Below the pieces are notes generated by a model that saw only the letters and a list, made by a program, of their open reading frames with translations, ran no database searches and was not told where the DNA came from. The position numbers were made by a program, and so were the translations under genes. Shown in pieces: positions 1,530-4,969 of a stretch of 5,495 nt of DNA; the stretch's first letter is position 1, and every line of letters begins with the position of its first letter. Origin of the DNA: a virus (taxonomy: Duplodnaviria; Heunggongvirae; Uroviricota; Caudoviricetes); IMG/VR virus record IMGVR_UViG_3300029190_000033, positions 1-5,495 of that record. One strand, written 5' to 3'.

Positions 1530-1700
1530 ATGCAACAGTTCGCTATTGCAGGGGCGGCATCGGTTCGCCCTTTCAACCCGATTTTATCGGTACAGCATTC
1601 ACGAAAAAACATTTTAACCGGAGCAGACTTTAAACAACCAAGAATGAAAAGTTTGCTCGAAAAGCTTTGGGATATTTTGAAACAACAAGGCCGTCCATGA
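1530..1700 (+). CDS. cIII: cIII-like protein (FtsH inhibitor family; P22 c3 / lambda cIII-like), 56 aa
   Basis: RBS AAGGAG 7 nt before ATG 1530. MQQFAIAG resembles the lambda CIII start MQYAIAG, and SLLEKLWDILKQQG resembles the CIII central helix (SLLERITRKL..RLIDILNQPG), as recalled. The track's longer ORF from 1425 would run through the terminator hairpin and is rejected. Confidence 0.7.
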   Translation: MQQFAIAGAASVRPFNPILSVQHSRKNILTGADFKQPRMKSLLEKLWDILKQQGRP

Positions 1701-1855
1701 GTTTTACAGATAACTGGTCAGACGAAGAATTCATTCGTCAGATGAAAGAATTAATCGGTAACGAAGGAGATATTCATGTCACTTGCAACCACAGTGAAGG
1801 AGAGCAAGTTACAGAGACGCATGTACACGCAGAAAGCTCTCTGGTATCGCCATAA
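1697..1855 (+). CDS. Small hypothetical protein, 52 aa, in the kil position (Kil-like candidate)
   Basis: ATG 1697 overlaps the cIII stop (ATGA), with AAGG 6 nt upstream. Overlaps the next candidate ORF by 80 nt in another frame. Kil assignment is by synteny only. Confidence 0.5.
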   Translation: MSFTDNWSDEEFIRQMKELIGNEGDIHVTCNHSEGEQVTETHVHAESSLVSP

Positions 1856-1946
1856 TGGTGACCGCGAAGGAATGCGGGTATGCCTTAATTTGTCCCGAGT
1901 CGAAGTATTAAATCAGCGTTATTTTCTTGGGCCGTGTCCATTCTGA
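1776..1946 (+). CDS. Small hypothetical protein, 56 aa, immediately upstream of erf (Arf-like candidate)
   Basis: Not in the ORF track; found by manual translation: MSLATTVKESKLQRRMYTQKALWYRHNGDREGMRVCLNLSRVEVLNQRYFLGPCPF. Perfect RBS AAGGAG 6 nt before ATG 1776; stop TGA is 10 nt before the erf ATG. Arf assignment is by position only. Confidence 0.4.
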   Translation: MSLATTVKESKLQRRMYTQKALWYRHNGDREGMRVCLNLSRVEVLNQRYFLGPCPF

Positions 1947-1956
1947 GATCAAACAT

Positions 1957-2553
1957 ATGAGCAAAGAATTTTATGCAAGGCTGGCAGCCATTCAGGAGAA
2001 TCTGAACGCGCCAAAGAATCAGTACAACTCATTCGGCAAATATAAATACAGAAGCTGCGAAGACATTCTTGAAGGCGTTAAGCCGTTACTGAATGGCCTG
2101 TTTTTATCAATCAGCGATGAAGTTGTGTTGATTGGTGATCGGTATTACGTGAAAGCAACGGCAACTATTACTGATGGCGAAAACAGTCATACAGCAACCG
2201 CTCTTGCACGAGAGGAAGAAAGCAAGAAAGGAATGGATTCTGCACAAGTTACGGGCGCTACAAGCTCTTATGCACGCAAGTATTGCCTCAATGGTTTGTT
2301 CGGCATTGATGATGCGAAAGATGCAGATACCGACGAGCATAAACATCAGCAGAACGCAGCAGCAAAGCAATCAAAACCATCACCTACACCTGAACAGGTT
2401 CTAAAAGCATTCACTGACGCAGCATTGCAGAAAAACNNNNNNNNNNNNNCGTTCGCCAAAGCGTGGAAGATGCTCGAAGGCACACCGGAGCAGCACAAAG
2501 CGCAGGACGTTTACAACATCAGACGAGACGAATTAGAAGGAGCGGCTGCTTAA
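1957..2553 (+). CDS. erf: Erf-family single-strand annealing recombinase (P22 essential recombination function), 198 aa
   Basis: N-terminal region MSKEFYARLAAIQENLNAPKNQYNSFGKYKYRSCEDILEGVKP...GATSSYARKYCLNGLFGIDDAKDAD closely matches P22 Erf as I recall it. Contains 13 masked bases (2437-2449); frame is maintained across them. Confidence 0.9.
   Translation: MSKEFYARLAAIQENLNAPKNQYNSFGKYKYRSCEDILEGVKPLLNGLFLSISDEVVLIGDRYYVKATATITDGENSHTATALAREEESKKGMDSAQVTGATSSYARKYCLNGLFGIDDAKDADTDEHKHQQNAAAKQSKPSPTPEQVLKAFTDAALQKNXXXXXFAKAWKMLEGTPEQHKAQDVYNIRRDELEGAAA
2437..2449. other. Run of 13 N (masked bases) inside erf
   Basis: Literal n characters; the erf frame continues across them, suggesting 1:1 masking. 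Confidence 0.95.
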
Positions 2554-2936
2554 TGGCACATTCGATTACTGTAAGACTAAACAAGCCCGCAAGAGAGTTT
2601 CAGGCCGGGGAAAATATCGGATTCAACATCCGTGCTGGCGTTCAGTATTACGATCGCCAGACAAAAAAGAAAGAATGGACAAACTACAGCGCCGTTGTAT
2701 TTGCCAAGCCGGGAGCGCAAGCGGATTACTACCGTAGTGTTCTTGTTGAAGGTGGCATTGTGGAAATTACCGGAGAAAACATCATGGTTGATGTTTATCA
2801 GGGGCAAAATGGTCAATCAATCACTCTTGAATTACTGAATGCAAAGATTGGATTTGCAGCTTCAGGAAATGGCCCGCAGCAGCAAAGTAGTAACCAGCAG
2901 AACACTCCTGTATACGACGATTCCATCCCATTCTGA
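2553..2936 (+). CDS. Small protein with SSB-type C-terminal tail (ends PVYDDSIPF), 127 aa; candidate phage single-stranded-DNA-binding protein or SSB mimic
   Basis: ATG overlaps the erf stop (TAATG). C-terminus is a Gly/Gln/Asn/Pro-rich linker ending in DDSIPF, like the acidic tip DDDIPF of bacterial SSB. N-terminal 100 aa has beta-rich character but I cannot confirm an OB fold by eye. Confidence 0.6.
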   Translation: MAHSITVRLNKPAREFQAGENIGFNIRAGVQYYDRQTKKKEWTNYSAVVFAKPGAQADYYRSVLVEGGIVEITGENIMVDVYQGQNGQSITLELLNAKIGFAASGNGPQQQSSNQQNTPVYDDSIPF

Positions 2937-2959
2937 TTTAGAAAAATAAGGATTCCATT

Positions 2960-3256
2960 ATGCCAGCGCCTCTGTATGGTGCGGATGACCCGCGCCGCTG
3001 TTCCGGCAATTCCGTATTGGAGGTGCTGGATAAATTCAGAAAAAACTACGATCGGATAATGTCGCTACCGCAGGAAGCGAAAGAGGAAAAGGAATTTCGC
3101 CACTGTATATGGCTTGCAGAGAAAGAAGAACGCGAGCGAATTTACCAGACATCAATCCGACCATTCCGTAAAGCCACATATACCCACTTCCCTGAATATA
3201 TCGACCCGCGCCTGCGTAATTACCGCTCACGCTATGGCGCTATCAGTAATGACTGA
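2960..3256 (+). CDS. Hypothetical protein, 98 aa; candidate Abc2-like anti-RecBCD protein
   Basis: RBS TAAGGA 7 nt before ATG 2960. Occupies the abc position downstream of erf in the P22 PL operon and is the right size (about 97 aa); sequence identity to Abc2 is not verified. Confidence 0.5.
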   Translation: MPAPLYGADDPRRCSGNSVLEVLDKFRKNYDRIMSLPQEAKEEKEFRHCIWLAEKEERERIYQTSIRPFRKATYTHFPEYIDPRLRNYRSRYGAISND

Positions 3257-3266
3257 GGAATTAACA

Positions 3267-3557
3267 ATGAAAACAATGAAGCTAAACATCGACCTCGGAA
3301 AATACGTTATTACCGGAACAAAACACGATCTGATTCTTAGCGAAAGAGGAATTATCAAAGAAGGCGAGAATGCAGGGAAAGAAACACTAAGTCGTATCGG
3401 TTATTACAGCAAGTTTGAGCATCTGGTTAAAGAGTTATGCAACCGTGAAATCCTGTTATCTCAGGCGCAGACGCTACAGGATATTCAGCAACATATCGAG
3501 ACTTTAGGTGTGTCACTTAGCATGGCTGTTGACCAGTTCATGGAGAGTAAATCATGA
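3267..3557 (+). CDS. Hypothetical protein, 96 aa
   Basis: RBS GAGG 8 nt before ATG 3267, 10 nt after the previous stop; the track's upstream extension from 3114 overlaps the previous gene and is rejected. No recognisable motif. Confidence 0.65.
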
Positions 3558-3721
3558 GAGGACTTGCATACAATCCCGGCATTCTTCCGGCAGAAATGAT
3601 TATTCGCCAACGCGTAAAGCCAATGCCATCGAGAGAGGAATTGCTTAAAAGAAAGAGTTTCGGTTCTGTTAATGACAACAAATATCTGAATGCGATGTTG
3701 CGCAAAGGAGGCAGCCAGTGA
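3554..3721 (+). CDS. Small hypothetical protein, 55 aa
   Basis: Not in the ORF track; found by manual translation: [59 protein letters not shown] start/stop overlap with the upstream gene and GTGA-type overlap with the downstream gene. Confidence 0.45.
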
Positions 3722-4203
3722 CTGGACATGCAACAATCCTCGACATGCGCTGTGGCAGTCGCATGTTCTGGTTCGATAAGAATGACGGCCGGGCGATATT
3801 TAGCGATATCAGAAAGGAAGAGCACACATTGTGTGATGGACGACGGCTGATAATTAGCCCTGACCTGATAGCAGATTTTCGTGCATTACCATTTGCAGAC
3901 GCATCGTTTCCGGTTGTTGTATTCGACCCTCCGCATCTTGAGCGTGTTGGTGATAACGCCTGGATGGGAAAGAAATATGGACGGCTGAATAAAGATACCT
4001 GGCGTGATGATTTGCGGCAGGGATTTAAAGAAGCCTTTCGTGTGTTGCGGCCATACGGCGTTCTGATTTTTAAATGGAATGAAACGCAAATACCTGTTCG
4101 CCAGATATTGGCACTGACCGACAGAAAGCCTGTTATCGGTCAACGAACAGGAAAGGGTGACAAGACCCACTGGATTATTTTTATGAAGGAGGGCAACCAG
4201 TGA
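3718..4203 (+). CDS. Putative SAM-dependent (DNA) methyltransferase-like protein, 161 aa, motif VVVFDPPH
   Basis: Strong RBS AAAGGAGG 6 nt before GTG 3718. Hydrophobic strand followed by DPPH fits the (D/N/S)PP(Y/F/W/H) catalytic motif of N6-adenine/N4-cytosine methyltransferases. Protein is small for a methyltransferase, so the call is tentative. Confidence 0.45.
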
Positions 4204-4969
4204 GCAAGATTGACTATCAGGCACTGCGTGAAAAAGCAGAGAAAGCAACTAAAGGAAGCTACATCGNNNNNNNNNNNNNNNNNNNNNNNNCGGCAATTTA
4301 ACAGGAGTTTTTGTTTGTCAAAAATGGAAAGGAGAGCCAGGTGGCGTGATTGCAGAATGTCACGTTAACTGCCTGGTTGAAACAGATGCTCAGGCTTATG
4401 CAAACGCAGAATTCATAGCAGAGGCTAACCCAGCTACCGTACTGGCACTACTGGATGAACGGGAAAGAAACCAGCAATACATCAAACGCCGTGACCAGGA
4501 GAACGAGGATATTACGCTAACGGTAGGGAAGCTGCGTGTTGAGCTTGAAGCAGCAGAGAACAACCTTATTGATAGTGAATGCCATGTTGCTGAACTGGAA
4601 GAAGCGCTACGCGATAAGCAGGCGTTACTTGAAGCCTCAGAAAAGCGCAACGCAAAATTACAAAGCGAGAATGCATACATCCGCAACCGGTTCAAAGAAC
4701 TGGACCTATTAATGGGGAAAAACATTCTGGTCATGCAGGCTGCCATTATCGAATGGCAGGCAACTGGCGACGCTAAGAGCGGACTAGCATGGATTTATAA
4801 CACACTGTTTGGCCCTGGCGAATTACCGGACGAATCTGAGAAAGATGCTCAGGCCTACTTTAATCGCAAATATGCACCGATTGACGAAAAGCTTATGGCG
4901 CTTCACAAGTGGTTTTGGGAACAAAGTGAAGCCGAGCGCGCCGCTGGCATTGGCATCAAAGGAGAGTGA
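4200..4969 (+). CDS. Ead/Ea22-like phage protein, interrupted by 24 masked bases; coiled-coil C-terminal half
   Basis: RBS AGGAGG 7 nt before GTG 4200. N-terminus [21 protein letters not shown] and downstream AQAYANAEFIAEANPATVLALLDERE are typical of Ead/Ea22-like proteins as recalled. Reading frame before the N-run differs from the frame of the long ORF ending at 4969, so the true start is uncertain (could be 4346). Confidence 0.6.
4267..4290. other. Run of 24 N (masked bases) inside the Ead/Ea22-like gene
   Basis: Literal n characters; the frames on either side are not the same. Confidence 0.95.

What the first reader, a model, noticed from the sequence alone, without database searches (positions are those of the whole stretch)
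2553..2936. Compact protein carrying an SSB-type DDSIPF C-terminal tip next to erf
The last residues (PVYDDSIPF), preceded by a Gly/Gln/Asn/Pro-rich linker, mimic the bacterial SSB acidic tip that recruits RecO, RecQ, ExoI, PriA and other partners. Here it is fused to a domain of only about 100 aa and is translationally coupled to the Erf annealase. It could be a phage SSB working with Erf, or a decoy that competes for host SSB-interacting proteins.
Basis: partly seen in the sequence, partly recalled or inferred. Interest (0 to 1): 0.6.

Follow-up and report, generated by a model that had tools for sequence, protein, structure and literature searches.

The report
Diverged phage SSB beside Erf
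[quoted passage not shown] It is real and well supported, but the family has already been described.

Summary
ORF 2553-2936 (+) encodes 127 aa ending PVYDDSIPF. Its ATG overlaps the erf stop codon (TAATG).

The protein is the orthologue of phage HK97 gp40 and occurs in about 11% of complete E. coli genomes, where it is annotated 'hypothetical'. Pfam, NCBIfam and PDB sequence searches with the single protein find nothing. Several other lines show it is a true, diverged homologue of bacterial SSB:
- The AlphaFold2 model (pLDDT >90 over aa 1-103) is an SSB-type OB fold, and the top 50 PDB matches are all SSB or PriB.
- A family profile aligns to E. coli SSB with 96.7% probability, placing aromatic residues on SSB's four DNA-stacking positions.
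- The tip [FYW]-D-D-x-I-P-F is conserved across the family, while the linker varies freely in sequence and length.
- Behind the same Erf C-terminal type, related phages carry either this protein or a canonical SSB. P22, whose Erf has a different C-terminus, carries the unrelated Abc1 in that slot.

The most likely role is the phage's own SSB in an Erf/Abc2 recombination module, with the tip recruiting Erf and/or host SSB partners. A pure decoy is unlikely.

A 2025 paper already names HK97 gp40 'SSB-1b' from its predicted fold. The tip, and the frameshift that removes it from the HK97 reference sequence, add modestly to that.

The parts
2553..2936 (+). Gene for the 127-aa HK97 gp40-type SSB ('SSB-1b'), stop codon included
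   Evidence: ORF and translation. PHROG phrog_44 'single strand DNA binding protein', 2.9e-26. About 95% DNA identity to the HK97 erf-gp40-abc2 region.
2553..2861 (+). OB-fold core, aa 1-103
2862..2912 (+). Disordered G/Q/N/P/S-rich linker, aa 104-120
   Evidence: pLDDT <50 for residues 107-120. Column conservation is 0.38 here against 0.75 for the core, and the post-core region ranges from 20 to 99 residues across the family.
2913..2933 (+). C-terminal tip YDDSIPF, aa 121-127, the counterpart of E. coli SSB FDDDIPF
   Evidence: Conserved as [FYW]-D-D-x-[IP]-P-F in relatives.
2536..2555 (+). GAAGGAG ribosome-binding motif plus the TAATG stop/start overlap with erf
   Evidence: Read directly from the sequence. 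The overlap is conserved in 80 of 80 loci. It is consistent with translational coupling but does not prove it.
1957..2553 (+). erf, the Erf-family single-strand annealing protein; contains a run of N at 2437-2449
   Evidence: Pfam ERF 2.3e-44. 75% identical to P22 Erf overall, about 93% over residues 1-135, diverging over the last ~45 residues.
2418..2956 (+). Mosaic cassette with no DNA similarity to P22: the last ~45 codons of erf plus the SSB gene
   Evidence: blastn of the window against P22 aligns 1957-2417 and 2957-3270 only. In P22 the slot holds abc1, which is unrelated.
2960..3256 (+). abc2, the anti-RecBCD protein
   Evidence: Pfam Anti-RecBCD_p2 1.9e-60. 91% identical to P22 Abc2.

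Best explanation
The gene encodes the phage's own single-stranded-DNA-binding protein. It is a strongly diverged member of the bacterial SSB lineage (HK97 gp40 type, 'SSB-1b') and forms a three-gene recombination module with Erf (annealase) and Abc2 (RecBCD modifier).

Proposed mechanism:
- The ~103-aa OB core coats ssDNA exposed on phage DNA during replication or end processing. It would use aromatic stacking residues equivalent to E. coli SSB W40/W54/F60/W88 (here Y32/W42/F50/Y82).
- The short disordered linker presents the C-terminal YDDSIPF tip.
- The tip serves as a docking peptide that brings Erf, probably through its C-terminal ~45 residues, and/or host SSB-binding proteins onto the coated ssDNA so that annealing can proceed.
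- The erf/ssb stop-start overlap would keep the two proteins made together.

Shown here by computation: the fold, homology to SSB, conservation of the tip, purifying selection, the conserved gene arrangement, and interchangeability with a canonical SSB.

Inferred: ssDNA binding, oligomeric state, which partner binds the tip, and stimulation of Erf.

For: Sequence homology: PHROG phrog_44 'SSB' scores 2.9e-26. The family profile A3 aligns to E. coli SSB with 96.7% probability, E 4.6e-10. The same profile finds K. pneumoniae SSB (1.1e-5), yeast mitochondrial SSB RIM1 (2.3e-4) and E. coli SSB (6.8e-3) among PDB sequences. The relative P0097 hits TIGR00621 'ssb' at 2.6e-9.

DNA-binding positions: the positions aligned to SSB W54, F60 and W88 are aromatic in 100%, 99% and 80% of family members, and the position aligned to K62 is basic in 75%.

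Tip and selection: the tip is conserved while the linker is hypervariable. pN/pS of the core is 0.03-0.08 against the six most diverged orthologues compared.

Context:
- 80 of 80 loci with an HK97-type Erf carry this gene with the same overlap.
- The same Erf C-terminal type is followed in other phages by a canonical SSB (MASRGVNKVI...MDFDDDIPF). P22-type Erf is followed by Abc1.
- A 52%-identical relative sits directly downstream of, and overlapping, a Sak4-like annealase in a Leminorella prophage.
- A Vibrio phage relative closes a RecE-like nuclease / unknown / SSB operon.

Precedent:
- The HK620 SSB tail NDYPPF is required to stimulate its annealase Sak4 (PMC5928155).
- SSB C-terminal tails determine annealase compatibility (PMC12054835; PMC13490951).
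- HK97 gp40 has been named SSB-1b from its AF3 fold (PMC12315714).
Against: There is no experimental data for this family. PMC12315714 says these proteins are unstudied, and a 2026 preprint still calls the HK75 orthologue Gp31 'uncharacterized'.

The single sequence fails every curated SSB model. Pfam gives no hit at E<=1, NCBIfam gives no SSB hit, and phmmer against the PDB finds nothing.

The position aligned to SSB W40 is aromatic in only 49% of members. The tetramer-interface residue His55 of E. coli SSB aligns to Thr43, so the oligomeric state may differ.

The link between the Erf C-terminus and the SSB could merely reflect where recombination junctions happen to fall. P22 Erf works without any phage SSB (Table 1 of PMC12315714).
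Confidence: 0.8

Rival explanations
1. General phage replication/protection SSB. The protein coats phage ssDNA and uses its host-like tip only to recruit host SSB partners (for example PriA, the chi subunit of DNA polymerase III, RecO, ExoI). It has no specific functional link to Erf, and its position next to erf is only operon history.
For: The tip is nearly the host motif: YDDSIPF here against FDDDIPF in E. coli SSB. The Leminorella relative carries the exact PPMDFDDDIPF. Family members occur next to different annealases, or next to none that can be recognised.
Against: The gene is overlapped with an annealase gene in every well-resolved context: Erf in 80 of 80 loci, Sak4-like, and the RecE-like operon. 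The slot behind the same Erf type is filled by either of two SSB types, but by Abc1 behind a different Erf C-terminus. A tail-dependent annealase-SSB partnership is shown for HK620 (PMC5928155).
Confidence: 0.13
2. Decoy. The protein mainly titrates host proteins that bind the SSB tip, disarming host repair or nuclease functions, and ssDNA binding is irrelevant.
For: The tip is host-like. The neighbouring gene abc2 is itself a host-takeover factor that acts on RecBCD.
Against: A decoy would not need the OB core. Yet the core is under strong purifying selection (pN/pS 0.03-0.08), and the positions aligned to SSB's DNA-stacking residues are 80-100% aromatic across the family. A canonical full SSB substitutes in the same slot.
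Confidence: 0.05
3. A different OB-fold protein, PriB-like or another nucleic-acid-binding OB protein, whose IPF ending is only convergent.
Against: The best matches in both fold searches are SSBs. Profile alignment to E. coli SSB gives 96.7% probability and also covers the tail. From established knowledge of the family, PriB has no disordered linker or acidic tip. Relatives reach sub-threshold TIGR00621 'ssb' scores.
Confidence: 0.02

Closest known systems
Phage HK97 gp40 (NP_037725.1), called 'SSB-1b' in Genome Res 2025 (PMC12315714); the 'HK75-type' Rec module of anti-RecBCD + SSB + annealase
   Same: It is the same gene: about 95% DNA identity and the same position between erf and abc2, with the same one-base overlap with erf. 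The paper assigns SSB function from an AF3 fold, which my AF2 model and fold searches reproduce.
   Different: The HK97 reference protein ends DDSNPILI because of one extra A, so it lacks the IPF tip. The window and 77 of 80 close orthologues have DDSIPF. The passages of the paper that I read do not mention the tip.
Bacterial SSB (E. coli SSB; Pfam PF00436, TIGR00621), and the canonical phage copies ('SSB-1', as in ES18 and Sf6)
   Same: Shared features are the OB core with a helix between b3 and b4, aromatic residues aligned to W54, F60 and W88, a disordered linker, and an acidic tip ending IPF. Canonical SSB-1 occupies the identical slot behind the same Erf type in related phages.
   Different: Identity is only about 10-18% in structural alignments. 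The query lies below every curated model threshold. HMMER retrieves a small separate clade of 214 cluster representatives among 1.84 billion. The linker is about 17 aa, against roughly 55 in E. coli SSB. His55 of E. coli SSB aligns to Thr43, and T43-N44-Y45 is nearly invariant, so oligomerisation is unverified.
HK620 SSB (HkaK, 'SSB-2') with the annealase Sak4
   Same: It is also a phage SSB encoded next to the phage annealase, with an xxPPF/IPF-type acidic tail. The last six residues are needed to load and stimulate the annealase (PMC5928155). This is the best functional model for the present protein. One SSB-1b relative is itself paired with a Sak4-like gene.
   Different: PMC12315714 describes HK620 SSB as not homologous to bacterial SSB, whereas the present protein is a diverged SSB homologue. 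Its partner here is Erf rather than Sak4. I did not compare the two proteins directly.
P22 Abc1, the occupant of the same slot in P22
   Same: It occupies the same position between erf and abc2 and has the same one-base overlap with erf.
   Different: There is no detectable similarity (BLASTP finds no alignment at E<=100). It is 94 aa with no tip, and it is paired with a different Erf C-terminus.

Membership tests
HK97 gp40 / SSB-1b family | Close sequence identity to HK97 gp40 over the whole OB core | tested here: met
   Only 2 of 103 core residues differ from HK97 gp40. Identity to other phage and prophage copies is 93-99%.
HK97 gp40 / SSB-1b family | Location in the early-left recombination module between erf and abc2 | tested here: met
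   80 of 80 loci with an HK97-type Erf carry it with the CTTAATG overlap.
Bacterial SSB family (PF00436 / TIGR00621) | Scores above the curated threshold of the family model | tested here: not met
   Pfam gives no hit at E<=1. Only 3 of 57 relatives touch PF00436, the best at 0.0038. NCBIfam gives no SSB hit for the query. The relative P0097 scores 37.6 bits against a cutoff of 53.95.
Bacterial SSB family (PF00436 / TIGR00621) | Detectable homology at profile level | tested here: met
   hhalign of A3 against E. coli SSB gives 96.7% probability, E 4.6e-10. hmmsearch of A3 finds three SSBs in the PDB at 1e-5 to 7e-3. Its length, 178 aa, matches chain 1eqq_A.
Bacterial SSB family (PF00436 / TIGR00621) | OB fold with a helix between b3 and b4 and long b-hairpins (L23, L45) | tested here: met
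Bacterial SSB family (PF00436 / TIGR00621) | Aromatic ssDNA-stacking residues (E. coli W40, W54, F60, W88) | tested here: met
   These align to Y32, W42, F50 and Y82. Aromatic in 49%, 100%, 99% and 80% of 81 family members. The test is alignment-based, and the W40 position is the weak one.
Bacterial SSB family (PF00436 / TIGR00621) | Disordered linker followed by an acidic C-terminal tip ending I-P-F | tested here: met
Bacterial SSB family (PF00436 / TIGR00621) | Homo-oligomer (tetramer or dimer) that binds ssDNA with high affinity | not testable with these tools
   Only single-chain prediction was available. His55 of E. coli SSB aligns to Thr43.
Annealase-cognate phage SSB (functional class, as for HK620 SSB-Sak4) | Gene adjacent to, and co-oriented with, a single-strand annealing protein gene | tested here: met
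   Erf, Sak4-like, and a RecE-like operon in a Vibrio phage.
Annealase-cognate phage SSB (functional class, as for HK620 SSB-Sak4) | Tail-dependent stimulation or loading of the annealase | not testable with these tools
   Needs biochemistry or recombineering assays. The only indirect support is that the Erf C-terminal type co-occurs with SSBs that carry a tip.
PriB | OB protein without linker or acidic tip, encoded in the rpsF-priB-rpsR operon | tested here: not met
   A linker and tip are present and the gene lies in a phage recombination operon. PriB appears only as a secondary structural match.

The most novel reading that the evidence does not exclude
Two linked ideas remain possible.

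First, the swappable last ~45 residues of Erf may be the receptor for the SSB tip. Erf-CTD plus SSB would then be exchanged as one functional cassette, with the P22-type CTD matched instead to Abc1 or to host SSB.

Second, the extreme divergence of the SSB-1b core, with only the tip kept host-like, may reflect escape from host defence systems that sense phage SSBs (Retron-Eco8, DARNA, AbpAB), while the phage still uses the host SSB interactome.
Probability: 0.2. Interest if true: 0.5.

Novelty: already known. Interest (0 to 1): 0.25.

Why it matters
The practical value lies mainly in annotation and in tool building.

Annotation: this gene is present in 579 of 5426 complete E. coli genomes, and in every row listed it is labelled 'hypothetical protein'. 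No Pfam or NCBIfam model reaches it. Yet it can be assigned with good confidence as a phage SSB.

Recombineering: annealase activity depends on compatible SSB tails (PMC12054835, PMC13490951, PMC5928155). A natural, compact Erf + SSB pair with an E. coli-like tip is therefore a candidate module.

Phage biology: the result supports the published view that lambdoid recombination modules mix interchangeable SSB, annealase and anti-RecBCD cassettes. It adds that the HK97 reference copy lacks the tip because of a one-base insertion, and that the cassette boundary lies inside erf.

None of this is surprising to a specialist.

Tried and rejected
Searches that found nothing:
- Pfam, NCBIfam and phmmer-versus-PDB searches with the single protein gave nothing useful.
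- The first, narrower family profile (A1) reached an SSB in the PDB only at E 0.59 and gave hhalign 69%. A broader profile (A3), built after the exhaustive representative search, was needed.

Ideas tested and rejected:
- That P22 Abc1, which occupies the same slot and has the same length as a truncated annotation in phage HF4s, might be a remnant of this protein. BLASTP finds no similarity.

Uninformative contexts:
- The contexts of two distant relatives (P0097, P0116) were short or carried no recognisable annealase.

Literature gaps:
- Supplementary tables of PMC12315714 are not held, so I could not check whether the authors noted the tip.
- Literature searches found no experimental work on HK97 gp40 or its orthologues.

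Technical misses:
- The first P22 coordinate guess hit the wrong region.
- The first locus-parsing script looked for the wrong file names.

Other checks:
- The promoter/terminator scan found no more sites than shuffled controls, and none was used in the analysis.
- ORFs on the opposite strand across 2577-2816 were not pursued. The + frame is the one under purifying selection.

Full report
**1. The observation**

ORF 2553..2936 on the + strand encodes 127 residues: MAHSITVRLNKPAREFQAGENIGFNIRAGVQYYDRQTKKKEWTNYSAVVFAKPGAQADYYRSVLVEGGIVEITGENIMVDVYQGQNGQSITLELLNAKIGFAASGNGPQQQSSNQQNTPVYDDSIPF. Its ATG (2553-2555) shares one base with the TAA stop of the upstream gene (2551-2553). A GAAGGAG motif lies 10 nt upstream of the ATG.

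The upstream gene is an Erf-family annealase (Pfam ERF, 2.3e-44). The downstream gene is the anti-RecBCD protein Abc2 (1.9e-60). PHROG assignments agree with both.

A C-terminus of the form DDxIPF is expected by chance at about 3e-7 per ORF. It occurs once among 108 stop-to-stop segments of at least 30 aa in the window.

**2. Identity**

The erf-ORF-abc2 stretch is about 95% identical in DNA to phages HK446, HK106, HK542, HK97, Sf101, CUS-3 and many Stx-converting phages. In HK97 the corresponding gene is gp40 (NP_037725.1), which lies between erf and abc2 and has the same one-base overlap with erf.

The window is therefore part of the early-left (PL) operon of a lambdoid prophage or phage of Escherichia. 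The gene itself is found in 579 of 5426 complete E. coli genomes. In every row listed it is annotated 'hypothetical protein'.

**3. Fold and homology**

With the single sequence, curated resources fail:
- Pfam gives no hit at E<=1.
- NCBIfam gives no SSB hit.
- phmmer against PDB sequences gives no meaningful match.
- Only PHROG phrog_44, 'single strand DNA binding protein', matches, at 2.9e-26.

I collected homologues, aligned 57 of them (A1) and predicted the structure. Mean pLDDT is 84.7, with 84-96 per 10-residue block over residues 1-103 and below 50 for residues 107-120. The element order is b(3-8), b(14-18), b(21-34), b(39-51), helix(55-63), b(69-74), b(76-84), b(87-95), b(98-103). This is an OB barrel with the helix between b3 and b4 and two long hairpins, as in SSB.

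The fold searches agree:
- Foldseek against the PDB returns only bacterial or mitochondrial SSB and PriB in the top 50 (E 3e-5 to 1e-3, TM 0.4-0.54, 7-18% identity).
- Predicted viral structures named SSB also match.

An exhaustive HMMER search with the family profile finds only 214 cluster representatives at 50% identity (E<=1e-3) among 1.84 billion. The family is therefore a small clade that HMMER does not merge with the canonical SSBs.

A broader alignment built from those representatives (A3, 81 sequences) does connect to SSB:
- hhalign against E. coli SSB gives 96.7% probability, E 4.6e-10, over residues 23-94.
- hmmsearch against PDB sequences finds K. pneumoniae SSB (1.1e-5, the alignment including the tail), yeast mitochondrial RIM1 (2.3e-4, core only) and E. 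coli SSB (6.8e-3).
- One relative (P0097) reaches 2.6e-9 on TIGR00621 'ssb', below that model's cutoff.

In the hhalign alignment the four aromatic residues that stack on ssDNA in E. coli SSB fall on aromatic residues here. In mature numbering, which I take from established knowledge, these are W40, W54, F60 and W88. They align to Y32, W42, F50 and Y82. Across the 81 family members those columns are aromatic in 49%, 100%, 99% and 80% of sequences. The column aligned to K62 is basic in 75%.

His55 of E. coli SSB, at the tetramer interface, aligns to Thr43. This residue lies within a nearly invariant T-N-Y motif, so the oligomeric state is open.

The core is under strong purifying selection. pN/pS is 0.03-0.08 against the six most diverged orthologues compared.

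**4. The tail**

Among the 120 closest protein clusters, the full-length ones nearly all end in [FYW]-D-D-x-[IP]-P-F. The 17-80 residues between core and tip change freely in sequence and length.

Other counts point the same way:
- Among 147 representatives from the exhaustive search, 64 end in an acidic-x-[ILVP]PF motif and 10 more have it within a few residues of the end. Many of the rest are fragments or frameshifted, or carry other ends.
- Of 188 family proteins of at least 120 aa, 118 have the tip.
- Column conservation in the unselected alignment A1 is 0.75 for the core, 0.38 for the linker and 0.63 for the last seven residues.

Tail statistics from A3 are biased, because I chose mostly tip-bearing sequences for that alignment.

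The seven-residue YDDSIPF differs from the E. coli SSB tail FDDDIPF by Y for F and S for D. Because the protein is an SSB homologue, the tip is most simply inherited rather than a mimic.

**5. Genomic context**

In 80 of 80 IMG/VR loci that encode an HK97-type Erf, a gp40-type ORF follows with the same CTTAATG overlap. 77 of these end [YH][DE]DSIPF.

P22 has the unrelated 94-aa Abc1 in exactly this slot, with the same overlap with erf.

DNA similarity between the window and P22 covers 1957-2417 and resumes at 2957. The exchanged cassette is therefore the last ~45 codons of erf plus this gene. At protein level, Erf is about 93% identical to P22 Erf up to residue ~135 and unrelated over its C-terminal part.

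A scan with P22 Erf showed two patterns:
- The Erf C-terminal type '...ELKQAFAKAWKMLEGT...' is followed either by the gp40-type protein or by a canonical SSB (MASRGVNKVI...MDFDDDIPF, 153-157 aa; loci L101-L105 and L107).
- The P22-type C-terminus is followed by Abc1.

Two very different SSB cores that carry the same kind of tip are thus interchangeable behind one Erf type. This is the strongest comparative argument that the protein does an SSB's job.

Further relatives tell the same story. A 52%-identical protein with the tail PPMDFDDDIPF overlaps the end of a Sak4-like annealase gene (Pfam AAA_24; phrog_124, 2.4e-12) in a Leminorella prophage. A 51%-identical Vibrio phage protein ending DDFSDSIPF closes an operon of a RecE-like PDDEXK nuclease, an unknown 193-aa protein and the SSB, all with overlapping stops and starts.

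**6. Mechanism**

The best-supported model is a phage-encoded SSB acting in an Erf/Abc2 recombination module. The core would coat ssDNA. The short flexible linker would present the tip. The tip would dock Erf and/or host SSB-interacting proteins.

The precedents are experimental:
- The HK620 SSB tail NDYPPF is required for loading and stimulating its annealase Sak4, both in vitro and in recombineering (PMC5928155).
- SSB tails are regarded as key determinants of annealase host range, and co-expressing a cognate SSB improves recombineering (PMC12054835).

For this protein, the following remain inferred: ssDNA binding, stoichiometry, the identity of the tip's partner, and any effect on Erf.

The pure 'decoy' reading is disfavoured. 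It does not explain the strongly constrained OB core and DNA-stacking positions, nor the substitution by a complete canonical SSB. Competition with host SSB for partners as a side effect is not excluded.

**7. Comparison with what is known, and novelty**

A 2025 Genome Research paper on lambdoid recombination modules states that HK97 gp40 has an AF3-predicted structure similar to bacterial SSBs, with at most 15% identity. It names the protein SSB-1b, and it lists an HK75-type module (anti-RecBCD + SSB + annealase, no nuclease) in 27 phages. It notes that these proteins have not been studied experimentally (PMC12315714). A 2026 preprint still treats the HK75 orthologue (Gp31) as uncharacterized.

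The finding is therefore an already described family in its usual place. This analysis adds:
- profile-level sequence homology to SSB, with the aligned DNA-stacking positions;
- family-wide conservation of the tip;
- the cassette boundary inside erf, and the interchangeability with canonical SSB;
- the observation that the HK97 reference copy lacks the tip.

**8. The HK97 reference**

HK97 gp40 as deposited ends ...YDDSNPILI. One extra A (TCCAATCCC against TCCATCCC) shifts the last codons out of frame. Among 80 close loci only the HK97 record itself has this ending.

The same reference has two more single-base insertions relative to the window just upstream of erf. These fuse two small ORFs that PHROG treats as separate families. 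This suggests either errors in the old sequence or mutations in the laboratory lineage. It may also explain why the tip was not highlighted for gp40.

**9. Verdict**

The main interpretation, a phage SSB partnered with Erf, is supported by computation. The decoy alternative is unlikely. Novelty is low: the family is already known and only predicted in the literature, and interest is modest.

Noticed in passing
L001 (HK97, NC_002167.1) about 3530-3552; window 2913-2936: The HK97 reference gp40 ends DDSNPILI* instead of DDSIPF*, because of one extra A (TCCAATCCC against TCCATCCC). Among 80 close IMG/VR loci only the HK97 record has this ending. It is either a sequencing error or a mutation in the laboratory lineage, and it removes the SSB tip.
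   Followed up: yes
window 1697-1946; L001 2296-2547: Upstream of erf the window has two overlapping small ORFs in different frames: 1697..1855 (phrog_2123) and 1776..1946 (phrog_1723), both labelled 'recombinase' in PHROG. The HK97 reference has two extra single bases that fuse them into one 83-aa ORF. A 2026 preprint reports that HK75 Gp33, encoded upstream of erf, triggers the P2 OLD defence. I did not establish which of these ORFs corresponds to Gp33.
   Followed up: partly
window 2418-2553 (3' end of erf): The mosaic junction with P22 lies inside erf. The last ~45 Erf residues are exchanged together with the downstream gene. The '..AFAKAWKMLEG..' Erf C-terminus is always followed by an SSB that carries a tip (gp40-type or canonical), whereas the P22-type C-terminus is followed by Abc1. 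This could mark the partner-binding part of Erf.
   Followed up: partly
window 2437-2449 and 4267-4290: There are two runs of N, 13 and 24 bases. The first lies inside erf, where intact relatives have 22 bases (residues TVEELKQA). Because of this the window's Erf reads as 198 aa instead of 201.
   Followed up: partly
L003 (Vibrio phage 1.144.O) 3420-4001: A 193-aa protein with no Pfam hit (phrog_11517, unknown function) sits between a RecE-like PDDEXK nuclease and the SSB-1b homologue, with overlapping stops and starts. This is the position where an annealase would be expected, so it is a candidate unrecognised annealase.
   Followed up: no
proteins P0127, P0156, P0160; also P0093, P0096, P0105, P0109, P0118: Some family members carry the IPF motif followed by a further ~14-residue extension (...IPFAP[IV]GL...). 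Others end in different Q-rich motifs (NFQQPR, FNQPQR) or in DDGWV / DDDWV. These may be alternative partner-binding tips.
   Followed up: no
L006 (Leminorella prophage) 3138-4417 and 7013-7243: The SSB-1b homologue is paired with a Sak4-like (AAA_24) gene. The same operon also encodes a DNA polymerase III theta-like protein (PF06440).
   Followed up: no
window 3267-3557, 3718-4203, 4346-4969: Downstream of abc2 lie three further genes: a DUF5405 protein (PHROG label 'replication initiation protein'), a DNA methyltransferase (phrog_954, 6.6e-86) and an Ead/Ea22-like protein. The 3' part of the window is mosaic relative to both HK97 and P22.
   Followed up: no
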